A DNA stretch of 64,000 nt from an archaeon (lineage in GTDB: Archaea > Iainarchaeota > Iainarchaeia > Iainarchaeales > Iainarchaeaceae): positions 2,691 to 66,690 of the forward strand of contig DATDXA010000029.1 of the NCBI GenBank assembly GCA_035289485.1. The letters run 5' to 3'. A program made the translations under genes and the position numbers. This document shows, one piece after another, positions 2,758-63,518 of the stretch. Within the stretch, counting starts at the first letter, position 1. Every line of letters begins with the position of its first letter. The notes under the pieces were generated by a model. The model worked only from the letters and a program-made list of their open reading frames with translations. It searched no databases and was not told the origin of the DNA.

Positions 2758-3699
2758 TCATTTTCGCAAAAGCCTTTTCTTCCCGAAATAGAGCGCCTCT
2801 TCCTGCACTTTCCTGTTCCGCTTTATCAGCTCGGCTATTGCGCCCACAATTATCAGCTGGAAGCCGAAAATCAGCAATAGCGCCGAGAGCACGGCGCTTG
2901 GAAGGTATGGGGAGACAAGGCCTGTCTTTGCATAATGGAGCAGCACCCTTGCGCCAAAGAGAATGCCGGCAAGGGACATAAGCCCGCCTGCCGTGAAAAA
3001 AACCTTGAATGGCTTGTAGTTGAGGTATGTCTGGATTATTGTAAAGCCGACCTTTTTCGCGTACACAAAAATGTTTGAAATGAGCCTTGAGCTGTCCGCG
3101 CGTTTCCTGAAATCAACCGGCACTTCTTCTATCAAAAAATTTTTCTCGTGGGCCTCCAGTATTGTTTCCTGTGTGTATGTGTAATCCGAAAAAATGTTTA
3201 TTCGCATGGCGGCCTCTCGGGAGAATGCACGAAACCCTGTCTGCGAATCTGTCAGGCGAAGGCCAGTAATGAAGCTCATTATTGCGGAAAGCGCCATGTT
3301 GCCGAGCCTTTTCTGCAAGGGCATGTGCTCTATTTTCCCCTCAAAACGCGAGCCAAGCACAAGCCCGGCATTTCCTTTGAGAATTGGGGCAATCAGAAGC
3401 GGTATTTGCGCCTGGTTGTATTGCAAATCGGCATCCGTATTGACTATTATGTCCGCGCCCATTTCAAGCGCACGTTCCATGCCGCGGGAAAAAGTGAACG
3501 CAAGCCCGCAATTCTTGCTATTCCTTATCACAGCGGCGCCGGCCTTCCTCGCCTCATGCGAAGTTGAATCCGCAGAGCCGTCATCGATTACAAGGACTTC
3601 TATCTTGCTTATTCCGCCGATTTTTTTCGGAATTTCCCTTATGACCTTGGCTATTGTTTTTTCCTCATTATAGGCCGGGATTGTCACCACAAGTTTCAT
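2758..3699 (-). CDS. GT2 glycosyltransferase, dolichyl-phosphate sugar synthase-like (DPM1/AglD-like) with a C-terminal TM segment.
   Basis: VVTIPAYNEE and DADLQY (DxD) motifs, plus C-terminal hydrophobic helices. Confidence 0.85.
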   Translation of the reverse strand: MKLVVTIPAYNEEKTIAKVIREIPKKIGGISKIEVLVIDDGSADSTSHEARKAGAAVIRNSKNCGLAFTFSRGMERALEMGADIIVNTDADLQYNQAQIPLLIAPILKGNAGLVLGSRFEGKIEHMPLQKRLGNMALSAIMSFITGLRLTDSQTGFRAFSREAAMRINIFSDYTYTQETILEAHEKNFLIEEVPVDFRKRADSSRLISNIFVYAKKVGFTIIQTYLNYKPFKVFFTAGGLMSLAGILFGARVLLHYAKTGLVSPYLPSAVLSALLLIFGFQLIIVGAIAELIKRNRKVQEEALYFGKKRLLRK

Positions 3700-3753
3700 G
3701 CAAAAACACCCAATAAAAGTCCGAGGTTGAATAAAAGCCTGCCGCAGAAATGC

Positions 3754-4704
3754 CTAGGGAAGGCCCTTGTATTCGGAGAACCATCTGCAAAATTTTTCAA
3801 TCCCTTCCTCAAGGCTGACTTTGGGGCTATAGCGAAGAAGCCTTTTTGCCTTGCTTATGTCTGCGAGGGTGAAATCCACGTCCTCGCTGAAGCGCGCGGC
3901 GTATTTTCGCTTCGCTTTCCTGCCAAGGTTTTTCTCAAGCAGTGAAACAAGTTCCCCAAGTTCACGCGAATCCGAGCTGCCTATATTGAAAACCTCGAAC
4001 TTGAAGCCCGCTTCAAGGGAAAGCATTATCGCATCGACAACGTCTGATATGTAAGTGAAGTCGCGCCTGGACTTGCCGTCCCCGAAAATCTCAATTTCCT
4101 TTCCCCTGTTTATGAGGTCGGAAAACTTGTAAACCGCCATATCAGGCCTGCCGCCAGGGCCATAAACTGTAAAGAACCTTAGCACAGTAATTGGCAAGCC
4201 GGTTGTGTGGTGGAAGGCGTGCGCGCAGCCCTCCATGCCTGATTTGGACGCGGCGTAGATGCTCAGCACGGTTCCAACGGGCTGGGTTTCGGTGAATGGC
4301 AAGGTGTTGAGGCCATAAACACTTGAGGTGGACGCGAGAATTGTGCTTTTGGCGCCGCACTTTTTGGCAAATTCCAGGACATTATAAGTCCCCCCGATGT
4401 TGGTGCGGAAATATTCGTGCGGCATGCGGGTGGAATCCCTGATGCCTGCACGTGCGGCAAGGTGCACCACATGGGTTATGCCTTTTCCTGAAAGCTTTTT
4501 GAAATCCTGCGGCCTTGTGATGTCGGCCTTTATGAATTCCCCGACTTCACTCGCCCTTATTTTTTTCACATTATCAAGCTTTAACGACATGCCGTAATTG
4601 TCAATCATGCTGTCAAGGCCGATGAATGGGATTTTTTCATCAATTAGGCGGCGGCACAAATTGCCACCGATAAATCCCGCAGCGCCGGTTACCAGAACTT
4701 TCAT
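3754..4704 (-). CDS. NAD-dependent nucleotide-sugar epimerase, probably a UDP-glucuronate 4-epimerase or GalE-like enzyme.
   Basis: VLVTGAAGFIGGNL, catalytic YAASK, and RFFTVYGPGGRPDMAVYKF resembling UDP-GlcA 4-epimerases. Confidence 0.8.
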   Translation of the reverse strand: MKVLVTGAAGFIGGNLCRRLIDEKIPFIGLDSMIDNYGMSLKLDNVKKIRASEVGEFIKADITRPQDFKKLSGKGITHVVHLAARAGIRDSTRMPHEYFRTNIGGTYNVLEFAKKCGAKSTILASTSSVYGLNTLPFTETQPVGTVLSIYAASKSGMEGCAHAFHHTTGLPITVLRFFTVYGPGGRPDMAVYKFSDLINRGKEIEIFGDGKSRRDFTYISDVVDAIMLSLEAGFKFEVFNIGSSDSRELGELVSLLEKNLGRKAKRKYAARFSEDVDFTLADISKAKRLLRYSPKVSLEEGIEKFCRWFSEYKGLP

Positions 4705-11174: not shown

Positions 11175-11271
11175 TTCGGAAACCTTTCAAATCGGTTTAA
11201 TCTGCAAAAAAAGACTGAAATTAATACTAACAAAAGGTGCCGCACACATTTTAAATGAAATTGGTACAACC

Positions 11272-11320
11272 TTTTTCTTTCCTTTAACAAGGAAAGAAAA
11301 ATGTTGACGAAAAAGAAAGG
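11272..11320. promoter_or_regulatory. Perfect 13-bp inverted repeat (TTTTTCTTTCCTT-taac-AAGGAAAGAAAAA) followed by TGTTGACGAAAAAGAAA, in the divergent promoter region.
   Basis: Read directly from the sequence. It is homologous to the repeat units at 50086-50300 (see findings). Confidence 0.6.
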
Positions 11321-11383
11321 TGTAAAGCCTAGGGCATAAATCAACCAAAAAGGCTATATTTGCCCTGCGCGCAATTATGCTCT

Positions 11384-48735: not shown

Positions 48736-49445
48736 AGAAATCCCCCCTCGCCCTGGTTTCCGGAAATGTGGGCGATTTTTCCTATCCTTTCCCGGTCAAC
48801 TTCGCACCCCGCGGCCTCCTTATTGCAGCCTATTACATAAAAGCTTGTCTTGCCTGCGACGACCTCTTTTATGAACTCAAGAGAGTTCTTGGGGTTTTCG
48901 GCCTGGGGGTCTATAAAAATCGAATCCTCCTCAGGAACAGTTCCGGACCCGTCACCTGAAAGGGTGTCGTACCCTGAGCCGTTGTATGAACCCACGGCGT
49001 AGAGGTGTATTTGCGCGCTTGTCCTGAAGCTGTCTGCCGCTATTGCCTTTGGGACATATGCGCCGCTTGAAGTTGATGAGGTAAATGACCTCTTGATTTC
49101 ATCGCGCGTGTAAATGGAATAAATCAGCACGTTTATTTTGCCCCCGTCTTCCATCTCAAGTTCCTGCTTTGAAACCTTCAGGACATAATAGTAGCTGCTC
49201 CCCGCAATCGCAAGCTCATCTGGGATTTGGTAAGAGTCAGTAAAGCAATAATTCGGGGAGTTCACAAGGGAGAAGGACTGCTCCTTTATTTTCGAGGCGA
49301 GCTCTGAGGCCTCCTTTACCTTTGCAATGTCTGTGAGGCTTGCCGCGAAGAACGCCACAATCGCAAATATCGCGGTAACAAGTATGAGAAGATTCAGCTT
49401 GCTTAGTATGAAATCCAGCATCTTCATCTCCTCCGGTAAACGCAC
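48729..49445 (-). CDS. Pilin-like protein (N-terminal hydrophobic helix).
   Basis: MKMLDFILSKLNLLILVTAIFAIVAFFAASL. Sits in the pilin operon, with overlapping stop/start on both sides. Confidence 0.5.
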   Translation of the reverse strand: MRLPEEMKMLDFILSKLNLLILVTAIFAIVAFFAASLTDIAKVKEASELASKIKEQSFSLVNSPNYCFTDSYQIPDELAIAGSSYYYVLKVSKQELEMEDGGKINVLIYSIYTRDEIKRSFTSSTSSGAYVPKAIAADSFRTSAQIHLYAVGSYNGSGYDTLSGDGSGTVPEEDSIFIDPQAENPKNSLEFIKEVVAGKTSFYVIGCNKEAAGCEVDRERIGKIAHISGNQGEGGFLC

Positions 49446-49984
49446 ACTTCTGGGGTTCCGCTAAAAAGGTTGAACTCCGCTTTCAGAGTGTACTGCCCGC
49501 CGCTTATTCCTTCCTGCTGGTTTTCCCACTCAACGGTTTCGTATTCGTCCGGGTTTCCAAAAACCCCCGGGTTGCACGGCGGGTCATCGCTTGGGAAGGT
49601 GGTCACCTGCGATATGCGCAGGCATTTTGTGTCGGAGAAGAGAGGGTTGTAAAATGTCAGGACCTTGCAGCTCTGGACTCCGCCACCGCAGTACGCAGAG
49701 CAGTAAGCCGGCTCCTCGCTTGTAAGAATCCTTAGCTTGCTCTCATCTTCGCGAAAGCACCCGGGAAGCTCGAACCCGACATTTGCCTTTGACTTGTTTT
49801 TTACAACGGTTTCTATTGCGGTGCGTATCTGCTCCATGCTCTGGTTCATGTTGCCCTTGCATATCTCGAAGTTGAGCTTGTCAAGGGCGTTAAATCCCAC
49901 GACGAGGACAAATCCCATGAGTATCATTGCAATGAGCAGCTCGAAGGGAGCGGACTCCTGGCCCCTTTGGGATAGCATGAGCAT
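49424..49984 (-). CDS. Archaeal type IV pilin (class III signal peptide).
   Basis: MLMLSQRGQESAPFELLIAMILMGFVLVVGF, a canonical RGQ motif plus hydrophobic helix. Confidence 0.7.
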   Translation of the reverse strand: MLMLSQRGQESAPFELLIAMILMGFVLVVGFNALDKLNFEICKGNMNQSMEQIRTAIETVVKNKSKANVGFELPGCFREDESKLRILTSEEPAYCSAYCGGGVQSCKVLTFYNPLFSDTKCLRISQVTTFPSDDPPCNPGVFGNPDEYETVEWENQQEGISGGQYTLKAEFNLFSGTPEVCVYRRR

Positions 49985-50085
49985 TAAAAGGGAAAACCAT
50001 GTATTTAAGGTTCACTTTGGGTTTGAAATGGAGACGCAGTGGCGTAAAAAGCTTGAAGTAGTTTTGGAGAAATAGGCAGAAAATT

Positions 50086-50300
50086 ATTTTTTGTCGGCGA
50101 GCACAGGCTGGTTTTGCACCAACCTTTTTCCTTGGGGAAAAACGTTGACGAAAAAAATGCGAACTCACTACTTATTCGCCAAAACCGGCTGGTTTTGCAC
50201 CAACCTTTTTCCTTGGGGAAAAACGTTGACGAAAAGAAAAGCCATCAAAACTATTTATTGGCAAGCACAGGCTGGTTTTGCACAATGTCCTGGCTCTGCT
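50086..50300. repeat. About 2.5 tandem copies of an ~80-bp repeat, each containing the hairpin TTTTTCC-ttgg-GGAAAAA followed by CGTTGACGAAAA.
   Basis: Copies start near 50086, 50166 and 50246. The cores are identical and the flanks are variable. A diverged inverted copy lies at about 50497-50550. The repeat is homologous to the element at 11272-11320. Confidence 0.8.
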
Positions 50301-50430
50301 TGAACATGGGCTTTATGAGAGCAATGATGAGGATTGCCGCAATCACGAAAACTATCAGAAGGTATACCGAGTTCCACTCGCCCTGCGCGCGCTCTTCTGA
50401 AATCAGTTTTTTGAGTGCTTTTGGCAGCAT
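50254..50430 (-). CDS. Small pilin-like or membrane peptide (59 aa), with its C-terminus encoded by the first repeat copy.
   Basis: Manual translation gives MLPKALKKLISEEREQGEWNSVYLLIVFVIAAILIIALIKPMFKQSQDIVQNQPVLANK. It has a Flp-like G-x4-V-Y hydrophobic core. It is below the ORF-track cutoff. Confidence 0.4.
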
Positions 50431-50604
50431 GAAAAAATTAGGGGGTTGAAAGTATTAAAGGTTAATGTTTGTGAATGGGGAACATAAAATTAGGCACTCT
50501 TTCTTTTTCGCCAACGTTTCAGGGCAAAACTTTGGTTTTGCTCTGCCTAGCAAACCATTTGGTTTGCAAGGTTCTTTCTCTGCAAGAGAAAGAAAAAGGT
50601 TGAG

Positions 50605-51171
50605 TTATGGGATGATTGCAACGAGGCAGACGCGCTTGCTTCCGCCATCAGATGCGAAATCGGATGAGGCATCGCTTTCATTGCAGTTCGTCACATCAAG
50701 CGCATAATCGCTGCTTTCGCCATATTCGTAATCATCCATTGTCTGGCCGATATCGCCTGACCGGTCGCACACAACAAGAAGCCTCACTTTCTGCTCGAAA
50801 TTGCCTGTATACCTTATTACCTGCGTGTTGCCTGCGCTGAAACTATCTATATTCGGGGCATTGTCCGCGACAAGAAGGCATATTTCCCCTCCCGAGAGCG
50901 CCTTTGACCCTTCCGCAACCGTTCTTGCATTCAGGCTGTCGCCATTTTTGAAGCTGACATTTTCTATGATGCCGGGAAGCCCGAGCTCATTGACCTTGCT
51001 TTTGACGGCATTAGTTGCCGCATTGTTTGCAGTGGTGCTTCCAATTGCAGGCAACACCTGCAGGGTCTGAAGAAGGATAAGGAGAATTGCGCCCGCGACA
51101 ACGGCGGCTATAAGCAGCTTAAAGACATCAAAGCCCTGCCCGCGTGCATTCATATGAACCATGGAAATCAT
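50605..51171 (-). CDS. Archaeal type IV pilin (class III signal peptide).
   Basis: NARGQGFDVFKLLIAAVVAGAILLILL. Confidence 0.7.
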   Translation of the reverse strand: MISMVHMNARGQGFDVFKLLIAAVVAGAILLILLQTLQVLPAIGSTTANNAATNAVKSKVNELGLPGIIENVSFKNGDSLNARTVAEGSKALSGGEICLLVADNAPNIDSFSAGNTQVIRYTGNFEQKVRLLVVCDRSGDIGQTMDDYEYGESSDYALDVTNCNESDASSDFASDGGSKRVCLVAIIP

Positions 51172-56364: not shown

Positions 56365-56549
56365 ACCTTTGGCTATGAATTGGGAATTCGTATTATTATA
56401 CTTATTTATAAAGGCACGAATCCGAGATAAAGAGCATTAGGAGTGCCGGAGGGGCAATGCCGGAAAATCCGCGCGCATTCCGCCATGCACGTGCCGCAAT
56501 AATCAATACTATTTTAAATCCGGAAACCATTCATAATAAAGAGATTCAA

Positions 56550-59500
56550 ATGTCGACTGATTTTACAAAAAGCGGCGCGGCAAAACTTTTGCTCTTTTTT
56601 GCGGTGTTTATTGCCACGGCGGCTTTGATGATTAATTTCACGGCAACCGGTTTTGCACCCCTCTCCGGCGCGGGCTCGGGGCTTGTCGCACACTACACAT
56701 TCGATGAGGGAAGCGGCACAACCTCGGTTGATTTTAGCGGGCAGGGAAATAACGCAACGCTTGTCGGCAGCGCATCTTGGGCCGCGGGAAAAACCGGGCA
56801 GGCGCTTTTGGTTTCAGGCGGCTCAAGAGCCACAATATCGGGGGACAGAATAGGCACAGGAGCGGCAACTATTTGCGCATGGATAAACCCCTCAGCAGTG
56901 ACATACCTTCACTCAATCGTTTCCACTACCGCTTTCCAGTTACAGGCCTTCAATACGGGAAGCGGCAGCAGCTACAGCATTTATCTTTTGAATAATTCGG
57001 CGGCATGGCAGAACACTGCGATTTCGGCCGGCGGAATAACCCCCGGGCAGTGGGCACATGTGTGCGCGGTAAGGCAGAGCAGCGGAAACACCACCCTCTA
57101 TGTTAACGGCGCGCAATCTGGAGCGGCAAACCAGTTCGCGGGCACACCGGTAAATAATTACGGCGGCGTCCCGCTCACACAAACAACAATCGGCGCGGAC
57201 CCAAACGGCAGCGCCGCATTCACAGGCAGCATCGATGACGTGCGCATCTACAACAGGGAACTGCCGGCAAACGAAGTGCAAGAACTCTACAACGGAGCCC
57301 CAGCAGTTCCTGACACGCAAGCGCCGAGCACACCAACAGGGCTGAATGCAACCGCAGCATCCCAAAGCCAGATAAATCTCACATGGAACCCGTCATCGGA
57401 CAACGTCATTATAATCGGATATAATGTGTACAGGAACGGAACGCATGTCGGCACAGCCACAACAACAGCATACAACGACACAGGCCTTGCCGCAAACACC
57501 GCATACTCATACACCGTGGCGGCATACGACGCCGCAGGAAACACAAGCGCGCAATCATCACAGGCAAGCGCAACAACAACATCAACCCCGCCCGCAACAT
57601 TCACCCTAACAGTTGCAAAGTCCGGGACCGGAAGCGGAACCATTTCAGGCGGCGCAATCAACTGCGGAACAACCTGCACACAAACAGCAATCACAACAGG
57701 AACACAAATCACACTCACAGCAAACCCCGCAACCGGCTCAACATTCACAGGCTGGAGCGGAGCATGCACAGGAACAACAAACTGCACACTCACAATCGGC
57801 GCAAACACAAGCACAACCGCAACATTCAACACAACAAGCGGCGGAGGTTCCGGCAACACAATAAATGTGAACTGCTCTGGCAACATCACAACCGCACTGC
57901 AAAACGCAATAAACTCCGCCTCGGACGGGGACACAATCAACATCGGCGCGGGAAGCTGCTCTGCTGGCCAGGTTTCTTGGGTGAACAAGAACATAACCGT
58001 GAGGGGCCAGGGAATTGGCGCAACCAACGTGAGCGGGCTGTCATTTGATGTCAAAAATAGCACAAAATCGGCTTTCAGAATCACGGGCATGAGTGTGGGC
58101 GCGGCGCCGCAATGGCGCATCAACGCCGACAACAGGACAACCGGCATAAAGGGCTGGAGGCTTGATCACATCGAATGGTCATATCCCACGTGCACGCAAA
58201 ACATTGCGGTGATGATTGACGGCATTACCTGGGGCCTTATTGACAACAGCGTGTTCCGGAATGCGGGCAACGCGATTTTCCTACGCAGCTACGCAGAGGG
58301 CACAGACGAGGTAAGCCCATGGCCGCCAGACGGCTCGCCGGGAATGGGCGGCTATTCGTGGCTTCTCCCGCTGAATATGGGCAGCGATGAGGCAGTGTAT
58401 GTTGAGGACAGCACTTTCATAATGGACAATGGCTGCTATTACGGTGTCGGCGATTCATTCTATGGCGGAAAGAGGGTGTTTCGCCACAATACAGTCACCA
58501 ATGCCTATTTCCAGAACCACGCGGCGCGCGGGCATGAAAGGGGCGGAAGCATTAGTTCTGAGGTTTACAACAATGTTTTTGACGCAACGGATTCGGGATG
58601 GTACCGGCCGATACACATAAGGTCCGGCACAGGGGTTGTGTTCAACAACACAATTAAGGGATTTTTCAACAGAATTGATGTGGACGACCAGAGGAGTTGT
58701 GGCGAGAACATCAATTCGCCCTTTGGTGCGTGCAACGGCTCAAGCCCGTGGGACGGGAACCAGCCGGGGCAGAGCGGCTATCCGTGCCTTGACCAGATAG
58801 GCAGGGGCACTGGCCAGTACCCTAATCAGCCGCTGGCACCGTACTATTTCTGGAACAACGGTTCATCCGCCACATGCTCAACTGGCGGGAGCTGCAACAA
58901 CAGCACAAGCATAGGGCAGAGCGCGTGCAGCACATCGCACATACAGGAGGGCAGGGACTACATAATCGGAACGCAAAAGCCAGGGTATTCCCCATACACC
59001 TATCCGCATCCGCTTCAGGGCGGGGTTTCGCCGCCATCTGACACATCGGCGCCAACAGTTCCAGCCGGGCTTGGCGCTTCGCAAACCACTTCCAGTGGCA
59101 CCACGATTTCCTGGAACGCCTCAACAGACAACACGGGCGTCACAGGATACAGGGTCTACAGAAACAGCGTTCAAATAGGCACGGCAACCGGCACATCATA
59201 CGCCGACACCGGCCTCTCACCCTCAACAACATACTCATACAGAATCTCCGCATACGACGCCGCAGGAAACACAAGCGCACAATCAAGCGCACTCTCGGTA
59301 ACAACAAGCGCGGGAACAGCAACATTTACCCTAACAGTTGCAAAGTCCGGGACCGGAAACGGAACAGTCTCAGGCGGCACAATCAACTGCGGAACAACCT
59401 GCACACAAACAGCAACAACAGGAACACAAATCACACTCACAGCAAACCCCGCAACCGGCTCAACATTCACAGGCTGGAGCGGAGCATGCACAGGAACAAC

Positions 59501-62500
59501 AAACTGCACACTCACAATAAACACCAACACAAGCGCAACCGCAACATTCAACACAACAACCCCGCCACCCACCGGAGGGCTGATACCAGCAGACAGGCTC
59601 AATGACTGGACCTATACGGGCGTTCCAGGCGGCATACCTAACAGGACCACGATTTGCGCGACTTTAAATCCGGGGGCGAGCGCAAGCCAGATTAACAGCG
59701 CAATCTCCTCGTGCAACAACGGAGTGGTCTATCTCAACGCTGGCACTTACAATGTCACTGGAATCCAGCTCTACAAGAGCAATGTGACCTTGCGAGGGGC
59801 TGGCGCCGACAAGACAATTCTCAAGGGCGGCAATATCATTGCAATGGGCAACGGAGGCAATTCAGCATCCGGCATATCCATAACAGGCGGAACAGCCAAG
59901 GGCTCAACGGCGATTACAGTCAGCAACACAAGCGGCCTGTCCGCAGGCATGATGATAGAAATTGACAGGGCAAACGACCCGGGCGTGGTCGTATCCACAA
60001 CGGGCAACGCTTCACGTTTCATCCGCCAGGTCAACAGGATAAAATCCATCAGCGGCAATACAATCAACCTGGAAAATCCGCTTTTCTATAATTTCAACTC
60101 AAGCCCCACAATCAGATACACATTCCCCACATTTACGAGCATGAGCGGTGTTGAAGACCTCAAGCTCGACCACTCAGGGAGCGGTTCATCTGGTTATGCA
60201 TTTTACACCAATTATTGCTATGGCTGCTGGGTCAAAGGAGTCCATTCATACAACCCCTATGGATTTCATATGGTCATTCTTGGCACTCTGAATATCGAGA
60301 TTAGGGACTCTTTTTTCAATGACGCCCAGACAGTGGGAGCCAACAACGCAGGGCTTGCGGTGTATGGAAGCGACCTATACGGCTCAAACAGCAACATGAA
60401 AATAGAAAACAACATTTTTGACAAATCGTTCCCCGGAATTGAACTGCAAAATTCCACCAGCGGCAACTATCTTGGCTACAACTACGGGCATGCAACCCAG
60501 GTCGTACCCGACGATTACTTCACCACATGGATGTTCCTTGACAATCACGGCCCGCATGACATGATGAACCTGTGGGAAGGCAATACCGGCGAGCTCTTCG
60601 GCTCTGATGGGTATTTCGGCGGCTCAAGCCACGGCGTGGCATTCCGCAACAATTTCACAGGAGTAAACCTGCGCGGGCCGCAAAACCCTGACAATCCGGT
60701 GCGCCTCAACCGCCTGTCCTATTACTACACGCTGGTCGGAAACGTCCTCGGTTCGCCAAGCGCAAGGCCGGTCAAATATGAGCAGGCAAGCGACGGGTGC
60801 GGCGATGGCCTTGCAGTATACCGGCTTGGCTATCCCAACATCGGCAATTGCGGGCTCACCGATGTTACCGGAAACAACGTGCCAGGCGGCATGAGTTATC
60901 CTGATGCCAAGGTCAAATCAACCCTTTTCAGGTGGGGCAATTATGATTACTTCAATAACGCCGCGCGCTGGGATTCAAGCGAAATACCGGCAGGTGTCGC
61001 AGTCCCCGCCACCCAGGCACTGCCAGATTCGCTCATATACAGTTCAAGGCCTTCATGGTGGCCATCGGCAGTTGCATGGCCCCCAATAGGCCCCGATGTT
61101 GCGGCAAAGGCCAATAAGATTCCCGCACAGCTATGTTTTGAAAATAACAATATCGCGAACGGCGGCGCCTTCAATGCGGCTTCATGCTATGGGTCGACTA
61201 CATCACCGACATGCACTTCTTTTACTTATTCCGCTTGGGGCGCATGTATTGGAGGGATGCAGACGCGGACGGTGCTTTCAAGTTTGCCAAGCGGGTGCAC
61301 GGGCGGCAGCCCAATCACTTCGCAGGCATGCACGGTTGCAAACAACCCGCCAACGGTTTCTATCACAAGCCCCGCGAACAACACAACGCTCTCATCCCCG
61401 TCAAGCGTTACAATCACGGCGAGCGCAAGCGACAGCGACGGCGCAATCAACAAGGTCGAATTCTTCAACGCAGCAACACTCATAGCAACAACCACAACCC
61501 CGCCCTACACAACAACACTCAACAACCCAACCGCCGGAACATACACGCTCACGGCAAAAGCAACCGACAACCAAAGCGCAACCACAACCTCCACACCAAT
61601 AACACTCACAATCACACAAGACACAACACCACCCATAAGAAGCAACGGAGAGCCAACAGGAACACTCCCCTCAACAATAACACAAACAAACATCTCACTC
61701 AACACAAACGAACCCGCAAACTGCCGCTACACAACCATAGCAAACACAACCTACAACAACATGGGACTCACACTAACACCAAACACACCAATCTCAACAA
61801 CACACACAACAAACATCACAGGAATACAACCATCAAGAACCTACACATACTACATACGCTGCACCGACAACGCCGGAAACGCCAACACGAACGACTACAC
61901 AATCACATTCACAACAGCAGCACCCTCACCAATAAACGGCTCATGCGGACCAACAAACAACACATGCACACAAGGAACACTAAATGATGTCACAGATTCG
62001 GCAACCAACTACCTCTGGAACTGCAACGGAACAAATGGAGGAACAAACGCAAGCTGCTCAATACCAAAACCGGTAAACGGAGCTTGCGGAACAACACTCA
62101 ATTCCTGCACACAAGGAACACTAAACGACACAGCAGACAACGCAACACAATACCTATGGAACTGCAACGGAACAAACGGAGGAACTGTCGCTAGCTGCTC
62201 GCTTACCAAACCCATAAACGGAACATGCGGAACCGCAGCAAAAGCATACGCACCAACCGAAAACTTCCCCAACGGAAACTACTGCAACACCGGAACACCA
62301 AACCCCACAACACCAACAAACCCAACCACAACAACACCCTCGAACTGGACGTGCACCGGAACCAACGGCGGCACAAACAGCCCAACATGCACCGCAACAA
62401 GAACAGCAACACCAATCAACGGAACATGCTCAAACACGCCCGAAACATGCACAACAGGAACATACACCGATGCAACAGACACACCCACACAATACAACTG

Positions 62501-63518
62501 GAACTGCAACGGAATCAACGGCGGAACGAATGCGACATGCACACAACCAAAACCACCACCAACAGTACAAGACGGAACAACACTTGATGTAATACTTGAC
62601 ACACCACAACAATTCACACTTGCAACACCCGGAACATACAAACTAACCGGAACCGTTATTGCACCAGACGGCGGACAAAACTCAGTATACATAGACATCG
62701 ACACCAACCCCGGAACCGGCGCAGGAACAGGAGACGAAACAAAAGCATGGGGCATGACAATAACAACAACACCACAACAGCAAGACGCAACATGGCAAGG
62801 CAACCCAAAAACATGGACACTCACAACCGGAACACACACACTCTACATAAACACAAGAGAAACAGGAACACAAATCACCACCATTAGATTCACAAACCTA
62901 CAACCAGTAAATGGCATCTGCTCAACAACACTAAACACATGCAACAACGGAACATTCCAAGACGCTACCGACACAGCAACAACCTACAACTGGAACTGCA
63001 ACGGAACAAACGGCGGAACCAACGCCACATGCTCAACACCCAAACCACCAACAGCAACAGACGCCGACGCAGACGGAGTATCAGACGCAGTCGACAGATG
63101 CCCAACACCCCCACTCGCAGCAAACCAAATCAATAGCTACGGCTGCCCAATACCAACAGCAACCAAATTCGACATCAAACCAGACTTCACAAACATGGAC
63201 CTAAACAACGTCACAAACCTAGAAATCGGAATCTCAACCTACGGAAAAATAACATACACCAACACACACCTAACACTCGCAAACATACAAAACGGACTAT
63301 ACCACCCAGCAAACCTCGACAACGACATAAACATCACACGCGGCCTAATCACAGTAAACGCAAACAACATACCCGCACTAAACCAACCAGTAGCAATAAC
63401 ACTCTACAACATAAACGTAACAAACCCAAAAATCAAAAGAAACGGAACAATCTGCACAGAATGCCAAATAATATCAAACACAAACGGAACACTCGTATTC
63501 ACAGTACCCGGATTCTAA
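56550..63518 (+). CDS. Giant secreted multidomain surface protein (2322 aa): LamG/ConA-like lectin domain, FN3 domains, divergent InlB B-repeat-like modules, right-handed beta-helix regions, CNGTNGGTN-Cys repeats and a Thr/Asn/Pro-rich C-terminal region.
   Basis: Signal anchor MSTDFTKSGAAKLLLFFAVFIATAALMINF. LamG-like LVAHYTFDEGSG...VDDVRIYNRELPANEVQELY. FN3 LTWNPSSDN...YRNGTHVGTA...YSYTVAAYDAAGNTS, present twice. FTLTVAKSGTGSGTISGGAINCGTTCTQ...FTGWSGACTGTTNCTL, present twice. Repeated YLWNCNGTNGGTNASCS. Very dense in N-x-S/T sequons. Confidence 0.8.
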   Translation: MSTDFTKSGAAKLLLFFAVFIATAALMINFTATGFAPLSGAGSGLVAHYTFDEGSGTTSVDFSGQGNNATLVGSASWAAGKTGQALLVSGGSRATISGDRIGTGAATICAWINPSAVTYLHSIVSTTAFQLQAFNTGSGSSYSIYLLNNSAAWQNTAISAGGITPGQWAHVCAVRQSSGNTTLYVNGAQSGAANQFAGTPVNNYGGVPLTQTTIGADPNGSAAFTGSIDDVRIYNRELPANEVQELYNGAPAVPDTQAPSTPTGLNATAASQSQINLTWNPSSDNVIIIGYNVYRNGTHVGTATTTAYNDTGLAANTAYSYTVAAYDAAGNTSAQSSQASATTTSTPPATFTLTVAKSGTGSGTISGGAINCGTTCTQTAITTGTQITLTANPATGSTFTGWSGACTGTTNCTLTIGANTSTTATFNTTSGGGSGNTINVNCSGNITTALQNAINSASDGDTINIGAGSCSAGQVSWVNKNITVRGQGIGATNVSGLSFDVKNSTKSAFRITGMSVGAAPQWRINADNRTTGIKGWRLDHIEWSYPTCTQNIAVMIDGITWGLIDNSVFRNAGNAIFLRSYAEGTDEVSPWPPDGSPGMGGYSWLLPLNMGSDEAVYVEDSTFIMDNGCYYGVGDSFYGGKRVFRHNTVTNAYFQNHAARGHERGGSISSEVYNNVFDATDSGWYRPIHIRSGTGVVFNNTIKGFFNRIDVDDQRSCGENINSPFGACNGSSPWDGNQPGQSGYPCLDQIGRGTGQYPNQPLAPYYFWNNGSSATCSTGGSCNNSTSIGQSACSTSHIQEGRDYIIGTQKPGYSPYTYPHPLQGGVSPPSDTSAPTVPAGLGASQTTSSGTTISWNASTDNTGVTGYRVYRNSVQIGTATGTSYADTGLSPSTTYSYRISAYDAAGNTSAQSSALSVTTSAGTATFTLTVAKSGTGNGTVSGGTINCGTTCTQTATTGTQITLTANPATGSTFTGWSGACTGTTNCTLTINTNTSATATFNTTTPPPTGGLIPADRLNDWTYTGVPGGIPNRTTICATLNPGASASQINSAISSCNNGVVYLNAGTYNVTGIQLYKSNVTLRGAGADKTILKGGNIIAMGNGGNSASGISITGGTAKGSTAITVSNTSGLSAGMMIEIDRANDPGVVVSTTGNASRFIRQVNRIKSISGNTINLENPLFYNFNSSPTIRYTFPTFTSMSGVEDLKLDHSGSGSSGYAFYTNYCYGCWVKGVHSYNPYGFHMVILGTLNIEIRDSFFNDAQTVGANNAGLAVYGSDLYGSNSNMKIENNIFDKSFPGIELQNSTSGNYLGYNYGHATQVVPDDYFTTWMFLDNHGPHDMMNLWEGNTGELFGSDGYFGGSSHGVAFRNNFTGVNLRGPQNPDNPVRLNRLSYYYTLVGNVLGSPSARPVKYEQASDGCGDGLAVYRLGYPNIGNCGLTDVTGNNVPGGMSYPDAKVKSTLFRWGNYDYFNNAARWDSSEIPAGVAVPATQALPDSLIYSSRPSWWPSAVAWPPIGPDVAAKANKIPAQLCFENNNIANGGAFNAASCYGSTTSPTCTSFTYSAWGACIGGMQTRTVLSSLPSGCTGGSPITSQACTVANNPPTVSITSPANNTTLSSPSSVTITASASDSDGAINKVEFFNAATLIATTTTPPYTTTLNNPTAGTYTLTAKATDNQSATTTSTPITLTITQDTTPPIRSNGEPTGTLPSTITQTNISLNTNEPANCRYTTIANTTYNNMGLTLTPNTPISTTHTTNITGIQPSRTYTYYIRCTDNAGNANTNDYTITFTTAAPSPINGSCGPTNNTCTQGTLNDVTDSATNYLWNCNGTNGGTNASCSIPKPVNGACGTTLNSCTQGTLNDTADNATQYLWNCNGTNGGTVASCSLTKPINGTCGTAAKAYAPTENFPNGNYCNTGTPNPTTPTNPTTTTPSNWTCTGTNGGTNSPTCTATRTATPINGTCSNTPETCTTGTYTDATDTPTQYNWNCNGINGGTNATCTQPKPPPTVQDGTTLDVILDTPQQFTLATPGTYKLTGTVIAPDGGQNSVYIDIDTNPGTGAGTGDETKAWGMTITTTPQQQDATWQGNPKTWTLTTGTHTLYINTRETGTQITTIRFTNLQPVNGICSTTLNTCNNGTFQDATDTATTYNWNCNGTNGGTNATCSTPKPPTATDADADGVSDAVDRCPTPPLAANQINSYGCPIPTATKFDIKPDFTNMDLNNVTNLEIGISTYGKITYTNTHLTLANIQNGLYHPANLDNDINITRGLITVNANNIPALNQPVAITLYNINVTNPKIKRNGTICTECQIISNTNGTLVFTVPGF

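What the first reader, a model, noticed from the sequence alone, without database searches (positions are those of the whole stretch)
50086..50300. Tandem 80-bp repeats inside the pilin operon whose variable flanks differ only by synonymous changes in a shared peptide C-terminus.
Three repeat copies on the minus strand end in the peptides ...VQNQPVLANK* (the real C-terminus of the 59-aa gene), ...VQNQPVLANK* and ...VQNQPVLADKK*. Copy 2 and copy 3 differ at 5 nucleotide positions (cct/ccg, gtg/gtt, ctt/ttg, gcc/gcg, aaa/aag), and all five are synonymous. Copy 2 also carries its own ATG, giving a 25-aa ORF MAFLFVNVFPQGKRLVQNQPVLANK. Each copy embeds a perfect 7-bp hairpin (TTTTTCC-ttgg-GGAAAAA). 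So the region is either an array of tiny translated pilin-tail cassettes or peptides under purifying selection, or a structured RNA/terminator element that has been duplicated. The plus-strand ORFs listed here (50091-50303 and 50114-50449) are artefacts of the repeat.
Basis: seen in the sequence. Interest (0 to 1): 0.65.

Follow-up and report, generated by a model that had tools for sequence, protein, structure and literature searches.

The report
Leftover pilin gene-tail copies between hairpins
Behind a tiny pilin-like gene of an uncultured DPANN archaeon lie two extra, probably untranslated copies of the gene's last ten codons, each preceded by a hairpin element. They look like by-products of repeated recombination at the gene's 3' end, not new peptides.

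Summary
On the minus strand the 59-aa gene (50430..50251) is followed by two units, 83 and 81 nt apart. Each unit is a T-rich stretch, a hairpin, and a copy of the gene's last 10-11 codons.

- **Coding signal.** The real tail and copy 2 differ at 6 nucleotides in 5 codons, all synonymous (P about 5e-5).
- **Sister species.** It has the same layout and the same synonymous-only pattern.
- **No sign of translation.** Copy 3 and the sister-species copy have no start codon. The 25-aa ORF is not conserved.
- **Where the signal comes from.** Both nucleotide versions of the tail occur as real gene ends in relatives. In sister-species strains the expressed tail has been swapped, while spacer and silent copy are unchanged. 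The 5' part of each silent copy matches its own species' gene exactly, which suggests gene conversion.
- **Copy number varies.** Two strains of the window species lack one unit.
- **The hairpin is not pilin-specific.** It belongs to a small element family with copies at 11262-11321 and 50498-50602.

About 85 other relatives have no array. Best reading: silent 3'-end copies made and homogenised by recombination next to a hairpin element. A working mini-cassette system is possible but unproven.

The parts
50251..50430 (-). 59-aa pilin-like gene with a class-III-type signal motif (..EERAQ|GEWNSVYLLIVF..). It is the expressed copy and ends in tail T1.
   Evidence: ORF. 61 homologues at 70-100% identity in 'Ca. 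Diapherotrites/Iainarchaeum' MAGs. It lies in a locus with a T2SSE/FlaI-like ATPase and a T2SSF-like platform protein. No Pfam, NCBIfam or PDB family match, so 'pilin' is inferred from the motif and the context.
50251..50283 (-). T1: the real 3' end, GTG CAA AAC CAG CCT GTG CTT GCC AAT AAA TAG (VQNQPVLANK*)
50201..50250 (-). S1: 50-nt spacer, made of a T-rich tract (TTTTGATGGCTTTTCTTTTCGT) followed by the hairpin CAACG TTTTTCC ccaa GGAAAAA GGTTG (hairpin at 50228..50201)
   Evidence: covariance-model hit 50243..50198, 68.5 bits
50168..50200 (-). T2: silent tail copy, GTG CAA AAC CAG CCG GTT TTG GCG AAT AAG TAG. Same peptide as T1, with 6 synonymous nucleotide differences.
   Evidence: Absent from strain variants L002 and L006.
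50168..50245 (-). 25-aa ATG ORF MAFLFVNVFPQGKRLVQNQPVLANK, spanning S1 and T2. Judged not to be a gene.
   Evidence: There is no counterpart start codon in unit 3 or in the sister species. Not in the protein collection.
50120..50167 (-). S2: 48-nt spacer, made of TGAGTTCGCA, a T7 tract and CGT, followed by the same hairpin (50147..50120)
   Evidence: model hit 50162..50117, 62.7 bits
50084..50119 (-). T3: silent tail copy, GTG CAA AAC CAG CCT GTG CTC GCC GAC AAA AAA TAA (VQNQPVLADKK*). The native intergenic region follows it.
   Evidence..QPVLADKK is a real C-terminus in relatives (P0010, P0018, P0023, P0035; L045).
50001..50010 (-). TATA-like box CCTTAAATAC of the next pilin-like gene (49984..49424). 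It marks the end of the array's intergenic region.
   Evidence: The same box precedes the orthologous next gene in many relatives. Promoter function is inferred.
50498..50602 (+). Inverted, composite copy of the same element family, upstream of the pilin promoter: CTTTCTTTTTCGCCAACG, three hairpins, then AAAAAGGTTG. Its first 21 nt are complementary to the T-rich arm of S1 and S2.
   Evidence: (I2, I5, I10, I14, I15), (weak hits at 50497-50537 and 50554-50605)
11262..11321 (-). Distant copy of the hairpin element: CTTTCTTTTTCGTCAACA TTTTTCTTTCCTT gtta AAGGAAAGAAAAA GGTTG. It lies between divergent sugar-nucleotide genes.
   Evidence: (66.6 bits)

Best explanation
The array is a by-product of recombination at the 3' end of a small pilin-like gene. 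It is not a set of extra genes.

- **Layout.** A palindromic hairpin element follows the gene. The element belongs to a small family found elsewhere in this genome. One or two promoterless copies of the gene's last 10-15 codons follow it.
- **How the units arise and are lost.** Unequal or illegitimate recombination around the hairpin, using the repeated GTGCAAAACCAGCC block, creates and removes units.
- **Why the silent copies still look coding.** Gene conversion from the expressed gene keeps overwriting their 5' part.
- **Why the differences are synonymous.** The expressed tail is occasionally replaced by a diverged allele from related strains. Every tail version therefore evolved, or was recently copied from, a sequence under protein-level selection. 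That is why the differences are synonymous or in-frame.
- **Role of the hairpins.** The T-rich tracts and hairpins most likely mark or stabilise the 3' end of the pilin transcript. The silent tails ride along in the 3' UTR or intergenic DNA.

Shown: the anatomy, homology with the sister species, the strain polymorphisms, the lack of start codons, and the element family. Inferred: the recombination mechanism, the direction of conversion, and the role of the hairpin.
For: 1. The same architecture occurs in a sister species (L100, L101, L102, L104). The spacer is homologous (GATAGCTTTTCTTTTCGTCAACG...GGTTG) and a silent tail FKQSQDIVNSQPVLQN* follows it.
2. The expressed tail is swapped between strains. 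L100 and L102 differ at 18 alignment columns inside the 52-nt expressed tail and at only 5 in the other roughly 1650 nt. Spacer, hairpin and silent tail are identical in all four strains.
3. In L104 the expressed and silent tails are identical over 46 nt except for one base. In L100 they differ at 7 synonymous nucleotides, including AGT versus TCC for serine. The synonymous pattern therefore appears when the expressed allele is replaced.
4. Both nucleotide versions occur as real gene ends:
   - 'cct gtg': window T1 and T3, L100, L013.
   - 'ccg gtt ttR': window T2, L104, L102, L045, and the sister-species silent copy.
5. The silent copies match their own species' gene exactly at the species-specific codons (CAA AAC versus AAT TCC). 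This points to within-genome homogenisation.
6. Copy number is polymorphic. L002 and L006 lack exactly one 81-nt unit. L002 differs from the reference strain at only about 0.1-0.2% of positions over 10 kb; for L006 few flanking differences are available.
7. Unit 3 and the sister-species copy have no start codon. The 25-aa ORF is not in the protein collection.
8. The hairpin element is a family. The motif TTTCGYCAACRTTT occurs 4 times in 64 kb against 0.19 expected. The stems differ in sequence and length yet stay fully paired, with 3 pairs changed on both sides and 100% of cells paired.
9. About 85 other Iainarchaeia loci have no tail repeat, so the repeat is not needed for the pilin family.
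10. Other short patches of clustered SNPs in the sister-species strains show that patchy homologous recombination is common there.
Against: - All three silent tails seen are intact: open frame, with a stop at the expected place. With so few cases, weak selection on them cannot be excluded.
- The architecture is shared by two species whose neighbouring pilin-like proteins are only 79% identical. The silent copy has therefore persisted or been renewed for a long time, which a pure by-product must explain through repeated conversion.
- The direction of conversion (expressed to silent, or the reverse) cannot be read from the data.
- No transcript or protein data are available.
- The role of the hairpin is unresolved. 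It is not followed by a T-run, and one family member lies in a divergent promoter region, not behind a gene.
Confidence: 0.55

Rival explanations
1. A working mini-cassette system. The promoterless tail copies would be a reservoir from which gene conversion, or deletion between the direct repeats, changes the exposed C-terminus of the pilin (ANK to ADKK; QGTK, QGN or RGN to QN). The hairpin element would promote the recombination. This would be a miniature archaeal analogue of pilE/pilS.
For: - The silent copies are promoterless and lack the 5' part of the gene, yet keep an open frame.
- The expressed tail is the most variable spot between otherwise near-identical strains.
- In L104 the expressed tail equals the silent copy over 46 nt.
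- Copy number varies.
- The C-terminus is the variable part of an otherwise extremely conserved protein.
Against: - The cassettes hold almost no diversity: the same peptide, or 1-3 residues different.
- The alleles that differ between strains (..GGT ACA AAA TAG TGTTT versus ..GGC AAT TAA TG) extend beyond anything the silent copy could donate.
- No pilin carrying the T3 ending or the sister-species silent ending directly was found in the protein collection.
- Deletion between direct repeats is one-way.
- About 85 relatives lack the array.
Confidence: 0.15
2. The tails are functional parts of a structured 3' UTR RNA. The conserved GUGCAAAACCAGCC would pair with the spacer (GGUUGGU/ACCAGCC, or the long 20-bp stem). 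The doubled module would tune termination or stability of the pilin mRNA, or would bind a factor that also recognises the real gene end.
For: - The identical 45-nt block ends exactly at ..CAGCC. Folding predicts two adjacent hairpins, or one long one, that include the first 14 nt of the tail. Z-scores are -2.1 to -4.1.
- Stem changes between species are compensatory.
- T5 to T7 tracts, which are archaeal-type termination signals, flank the hairpins.
Against: - Pairing of the tail start is not conserved. In the sister species the silent tail begins 21 nt earlier in the coding sequence and is predicted to pair differently.
- An RNA-structure constraint does not explain the codon-periodic pattern of differences.
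- No Rfam family matches.
- The related element at 11262-11321 has no tail attached.
Confidence: 0.1
3. The tails are scars of an integrative element that targeted the 3' end of the pilin gene and carried its own replacement gene end. This is how prophages e14 and 21 behave at E. coli icd (my own knowledge, not checked here). The element would since have been deleted down to the hairpin.
For: - There are direct repeats of the gene end, with synonymous differences between the replacement end and the displaced end.
- The region just downstream of this gene is an insertion hot spot in relatives:
   - a 177-aa gene inserted in L105;
   - a PemK module on the P0009 contig;
   - a duplicated promoter in L025.
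Against: - Only 48-58 nt lie between the repeats.
- No recombinase family was matched by the locus genes and the few other window ORFs scanned.
- The repeat length differs between species (14-33 nt against 46 nt), so there is no fixed attachment core.
- The same spacer is present in two species.
Confidence: 0.05
4. The extra tails are translated, either as small independent peptides (the 25-aa ORF) or by ribosome hopping over the roughly 50-nt gap after the stop codon, as in phage T4 gene 60.
For: - ATG ORF in unit 2.
- The tail frame is open across both window hairpins.
- A stop codon, a roughly 50-nt gap with a hairpin, and in-frame AAA codons suited to landing are all present.
Against: - No start codon in unit 3.
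- In-frame TAG in the hairpin loop and no start in the sister species.
- L102 and L104 end in AAT TAA, so there is no matching take-off and landing codon pair.
- The hairpin starts about 25 nt after the stop, not at the take-off codon.
- The ORF is absent from the protein collection.
Confidence: 0.03

Closest known systems
Neisseria pilE/pilS pilin antigenic variation (silent partial pilin copies used as gene-conversion donors)
   Same: Promoterless partial pilin copies that lack the 5' coding part lie next to the expressed pilin gene. They share identical blocks with the expressed gene. There is evidence of conversion-like homogenisation and of strain-level variation at the expressed gene's variable end.
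   Different: - The copies are only 10-15 codons long and lie in direct tandem 50 nt behind the gene.
- They carry almost no alternative information.
- No switched variants were found.
- No G-quadruplex or small-RNA initiator was examined.
- The host is a DPANN archaeon and the pilin has no family assignment.
Partial tandem duplication with concerted evolution (unequal crossing-over or slippage next to a palindrome)
   Same: Head-to-tail units of 81-83 nt or 116 nt. Copy number varies between strains. Perfectly identical blocks sit next to diverged segments. A hairpin lies at the unit border.
   Different: The diverged segments differ only at synonymous sites. That requires input from functional alleles, not plain neutral decay.
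Displaced gene 3' ends left by elements that integrate into protein-coding genes (e14 and phage 21 at E. coli icd; my own knowledge)
   Same: The gene is completed by a replacement 3' end that differs synonymously from the displaced original. The original persists downstream as a silent fragment.
   Different: There is no element or integrase between the copies, only a 48-58 nt hairpin spacer. The repeat length is not fixed.
Small palindromic intergenic repeat elements (REP- or MITE-like) and archaeal oligo-T termination signals
   Same: The hairpin element is short and multi-copy (4 motif copies in 64 kb). It has conserved ends and a variable, perfectly paired interior. It lies in intergenic DNA and carries T4-T7 tracts.
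   Different: - No target-site duplication or terminal inverted repeats beyond the stem were identified.
- One copy lies in a divergent promoter region.
- There is no T-run after the stem.
- Similar AACC-T5..A5-GGTT palindromes occur in pilus loci of distant relatives, so a regulatory site is also possible.

Membership tests
pilE/pilS-type silent-cassette variation | Silent copies lack a promoter and the 5' coding region | tested here: met
   The copies start at codon 50 (window) or codon 43 (sister species). There is no consistent start codon.
pilE/pilS-type silent-cassette variation | Silent copies encode diverse alternative sequences for the variable region | tested here: not met
   T2 encodes the same peptide as T1. 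T3 and the sister-species copy differ by 1-3 terminal residues.
pilE/pilS-type silent-cassette variation | Variants exist in which the expressed gene has received silent-copy sequence | tested here: inconclusive
   The L104 expressed tail equals the silent copy over 46 nt, but the direction is unknown. No pilin with the ..ADKK (T3) or ..QN ending fused directly was found.
Diversity-generating retroelement (template repeat / variable repeat) | Differences between the repeats are confined to adenines of the template copy | tested here: not met
   The differences are T/G, G/T, C/T, T/G, C/G and A/G. They are not adenine-specific on either strand.
Diversity-generating retroelement (template repeat / variable repeat) | A reverse transcriptase gene lies nearby | tested here: inconclusive
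   None of the locus genes and the few other window ORFs scanned matched a reverse transcriptase. Not every ORF of the 64-kb window was scanned.
Shufflon or invertible pilin-tail segments | Inverted recombination sites flank alternative C-terminal segments, with a site-specific recombinase present | tested here: not met
   The tails are direct repeats, not inverted ones. No recombinase family was hit in the locus genes and the few other ORFs scanned.
Bacterial-type intrinsic terminator | A GC-rich stem followed by a T-run on the coding strand | tested here: not met
   The terminator scan found none on the minus strand in 49900-50700. The stems are A/T-rich and are followed by GGTTGGTGCAAAACC.
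Archaeal oligo-T termination signal | A run of five or more T on the coding strand downstream of the stop codon | tested here: met
   T4CT4 and T5 in S1; T7 and T5 in S2. Actual termination could not be tested.
Translational bypassing of the T4 gene 60 type | Matching take-off and landing codons, with a stop codon and a hairpin at the take-off site | tested here: not met
   The hairpin begins about 25 nt after the stop. The L102 and L104 alleles end in AAT TAA and have no suitable landing codon.
Independent small protein-coding gene | The start codon and open frame are conserved in homologous copies | tested here: not met
   Only unit 2 has an ATG. Unit 3 has no start. The sister-species frame is interrupted by TAG.
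Known RNA family (Rfam) | A covariance-model match | tested here: not met
   No hit at the gathering threshold over the whole window, nor at E<=1 over 49950-50650.
Archaeal type IV pilin (class III signal peptide) | An N-terminal [KR][GA]-cleavage motif before a hydrophobic helix, and a locus with a T2SSE-type ATPase and a T2SSF-type platform protein | tested here: met
   The motif ..ERA|QGEWNSVYLLIVFVIAAILIIALI.. is present. The ATPase matches PF00437 at 9.6e-20. The platform protein matches PF00482 only weakly (2.5e-4). No pilin profile matches the 59-aa protein, so family membership itself remains inferred.

The most novel reading that the evidence does not exclude
The hairpin element plus silent tail copies form a miniature recombination device. 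It would vary or repair the surface-exposed C-terminus of the smallest and most conserved pilin of Iainarchaeia (DPANN). That would be the first cassette-type pilin variation system described in archaea.
Probability: 0.15. Interest if true: 0.7.

Novelty: new member of a known kind. Interest (0 to 1): 0.35.

Why it matters
- **A cautionary case.** A synonymous-only pattern between a gene end and nearby noncoding copies does not show that the copies are translated. Conversion from the gene and import of functional alleles produce the same pattern.
- **A recombination hot spot in a DPANN pilus locus.** The 3' end of a tiny, highly conserved and so far unclassified pilin-like gene is such a hot spot. 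In these archaea pili are thought to mediate attachment to hosts. If the silent copies do feed variation into the expressed gene, this would be a new archaeal form of surface variation.
- **Spurious gene calls.** The array generates ORFs on both strands that should not be annotated as genes.

Tried and rejected
- **DGR template/variable repeat.** Rejected: the mismatches are not adenine-specific.
- **Stop-codon readthrough or pyrrolysine.** Rejected: TAG is followed two codons later by an in-frame TGA.
- **Frameshift into the tail frame.** Rejected: that frame has a TAA inside T1.
- **T4 gene 60-like hopping.** Rejected on the L102 and L104 alleles.
- **Bulge-helix-bulge intron.** No such motif appears in the predicted folds.
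- **Assembly artefact.** Rejected: the three-tail form occurs in 8 assemblies and the two-tail form in 2. The repeated identical block (45-55 nt) is shorter than the assemblers' k=141.
- **Searches that found nothing:**
   - the hairpin pattern in metagenome contigs;
   - the spacer in viral contigs;
   - the spacer against 85 relatives' loci by blastn;
   - Rfam;
   - PDB and Pfam for the small protein.
- **DNA that could not be obtained.** The closest pilin relatives by tail sequence (P0002, P0006, P0009) had no retrievable DNA. P0067, the 84%-identical neighbour protein, was not on record. The most informative intermediate genomes are therefore missing.
- **Literature.** A search for an archaeal pilin cassette system surfaced only bacterial and trypanosome systems among the listed top hits.

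Full report
**1. Anatomy**

Read on the minus strand, the 59-aa gene (50430..50251) ends in GTG CAA AAC CAG CCT GTG CTT GCC AAT AAA TAG (T1). The following parts come after it:
- S1 (50250..50201), a 50-nt spacer: a T-rich tract, then the hairpin CAACG TTTTTCC ccaa GGAAAAA GGTTG.
- T2 (50200..50168), a second tail.
- S2 (50167..50120), a 48-nt spacer with a T7 tract and the identical hairpin.
- T3 (50119..50084), a third tail.
- The ordinary intergenic DNA, up to the TATA-like box of the next pilin-like gene.

Start-to-start spacing is 83 and 81 nt. A 45-nt block, made of the hairpin plus GTGCAAAACCAGCC, is identical in the two units; none is expected by chance.

Three details need correcting:
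- The five synonymous codon changes separate T1 from T2, not copy 2 from copy 3.
- They involve six nucleotides.
- There are two hairpins, not three.

**2. Context**

The locus is an archaeal type-IV-pilus-like cluster. It has a FlaI/TadA-like ATPase, a T2SSF-like platform protein and several proteins with class-III-type signal motifs.

The 59-aa protein matches no curated family and no solved structure. It has 61 homologues of 51-80 aa in 'Ca. Diapherotrites/Iainarchaeum' MAGs. These are very conserved except at the extreme C-terminus. The window therefore comes from a DPANN archaeon.

**3. Is the coding-like signal real?**

Yes. Six random substitutions in T1 would all be synonymous with probability about 5e-5. 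The signal must be explained, not dismissed.

**4. Comparative data**

- **Same species.** Ten assemblies of the same species, at least 99.7% identical, carry the array. Two of them (L002, L006) lack exactly the middle unit. This is a copy-number polymorphism, because the shared block is shorter than the assembly k-mer.
- **Other Iainarchaeia.** About 85 other loci have no tail repeat and no homologue of the spacer. In most of those with the usual layout, the gene is followed within 30-90 nt by the promoter of the next pilin-like gene.
- **Sister species.** One sister species does share the design (L100, L101, L102, L104). Its neighbouring pilin-like protein is 79% identical. The spacer is homologous, with a longer hairpin (CAACG TTTTCTTTTCT cgt AGAAAAGAAAA GGTTG). 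A silent tail FKQSQDIVNSQPVLQN* follows it, with a period of 116 nt.

**5. What the sister species shows**

- **The expressed tail is swapped.** Its four strains are 98-99% identical, yet they carry two very different expressed tails:
   - gtt aat agt cag cct gtg ttg cag ggt aca aaa tag;
   - gtg aat tcc cag ccg gtt ttg c[ag]g ggc aat taa.

  Spacer, hairpin and silent tail are identical in all four. L100 and L102 differ at 18 alignment columns within the 52-nt tail segment and at 5 elsewhere.
- **The synonymous pattern follows the swap.** In L104 the expressed and silent tails are the same over 46 nt but for one base. In L100 they differ at seven nucleotides, all synonymous. One of these is AGT versus TCC for serine, which cannot arise by single synonymous steps. 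The pattern therefore appears when the expressed end is replaced by another functional allele.
- **Both versions are real gene ends somewhere.** The 'cct gtg' and 'ccg gtt ttR' nucleotide versions both occur as real gene ends in relatives (L013, L014, L045), and both occur among the window's three tails.
- **Homogenisation within each genome.** Each silent copy matches its own species' gene exactly at the species-specific codons. This indicates homogenisation within the genome.
- **Recombination is common there.** Other short patches of clustered SNPs in these strains show that patchy recombination is usual in this population.

**6. Translation**

In the tail frame the window reads *IVLMAFLFVNVFPQGKRLVQNQPVLANK**VRIFFVNVFPQGKRLVQNQPVLADKK*. 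Unit 3 has no start codon before the tail. The sister-species frame has a TAG in the hairpin loop and no start. The tails are out of frame with the gene, and readthrough meets a TGA two codons on. Neither the 25-aa product nor pilins fused to a silent ending are in the protein collection. I conclude that the extra tails are not translated.

**7. The hairpin is a family member**

The motif TTTCGYCAACRTTT occurs four times in the window, against 0.19 expected:
- two copies in the array;
- one inverted copy just upstream of the pilin promoter, heading a composite element at 50498-50602 that ends in AAAAAGGTTG;
- one at 11262-11321, between a UDP-glucose dehydrogenase gene and a nucleotidyl-transferase gene.

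The ends are conserved. The stems are 7, 11 or 13 bp long, differ in sequence and are always fully paired, with three pairs changed on both sides. A covariance model recovers only these copies strongly.

Similar AACC-T5..A5-GGTT palindromes lie in pilus loci of distant relatives. One sits directly after a stop codon. One occurs as a tandem pair on a promoter.

The folds are moderately better than shuffles. There is no Rfam match and no bacterial-type terminator. The function of the element is therefore open. I favour a role at the transcript 3' end because of the T-tracts, but a DNA-level regulatory or recombination-prone palindrome is not excluded.

**8. Verdict**

The array is best read as silent 3'-end copies created, lost and homogenised by recombination beside a palindromic element. 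The synonymous signature is inherited from functional alleles.

A functional cassette system is the most interesting reading still open, at about 15%. Three findings speak against it: the silent copies hold almost no alternative information, the strain alleles extend beyond what the silent copy could donate, and no switched variants were found.

The most informative intermediate genomes could not be retrieved.

Noticed in passing
window 11262-11321 (-): A copy of the hairpin element (13-bp perfect stem, same conserved ends) lies between divergently transcribed UDP-glucose dehydrogenase and nucleotidyl-transferase genes, about 10 nt upstream of a TATA-like TTTAAAAT. This hints at a link between this element and cell-surface genes.
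   Followed up: partly
window 50498-50602 (+) versus 50221-50241 and 50140-50155: The pilin gene is bracketed by inverted copies of the element. A 21-nt stretch upstream of its promoter is 86% complementary to the T-rich arm of S1, and 16 nt are 94% complementary to that of S2. In a read-through operon transcript this could form a long-range stem around the pilin ORF. It is not present in the sister species.
   Followed up: partly
L005 about 3485-3934 (same species as the window): One strain has a roughly 120-nt in-frame deletion in the 186-aa pilin-like gene just downstream of the array. The product is 149 aa instead of 186 aa.
   Followed up: no
L105 1850-2500; the P0009 contig; L025 3162-3350: The DNA just downstream of the small pilin gene is an insertion or rearrangement hot spot in relatives. 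Examples are a 177-aa gene on the opposite strand, a PemK toxin module, and a duplicated promoter segment with an inserted hairpin.
   Followed up: partly
L100 604-616 and 997-1009: A perfect 13-nt direct repeat, CCCCCGCTTTTCA, flanks the whole module (promoter, small pilin gene, spacer and silent tail) in the sister species. I estimated by hand that it is unlikely to arise by chance (order 0.002).
   Followed up: no
L073 45-120; L059 1290-1335: Distant relatives carry AACCTTTTT(T)..AAAAAGGTT palindromes in their pilus loci. One is a tandem pair overlapping a TATA box. One lies directly after the stop codon of a pilin-like gene.
   Followed up: partly
L104 1103-1155 and L101 1580-1681 (L100 coordinates): Short patches of clustered SNPs occur inside the neighbouring pilin-like genes of otherwise near-identical strains. 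This is the signature of frequent short-tract recombination in the pilus locus.
   Followed up: no
window 56457-63518 (+), repeats at 61928-62551: A 2353-aa surface-type protein (Laminin_G_3, fn3, Big_7 and InlB B-repeat-like domains) lies next to the pilus locus. It contains diverged 141-nt tandem repeats and A/C-rich low-complexity DNA.
   Followed up: no
window 50251-50430 (-) and homologues P0001-P0061: The small protein has a predicted mature length of about 43 aa and is 70-88% identical across the class. It is far more conserved than the larger pilin-like neighbours. It matches no Pfam, NCBIfam or PDB entry, so it appears to be an unclassified minimal pilin-like family.
   Followed up: partly
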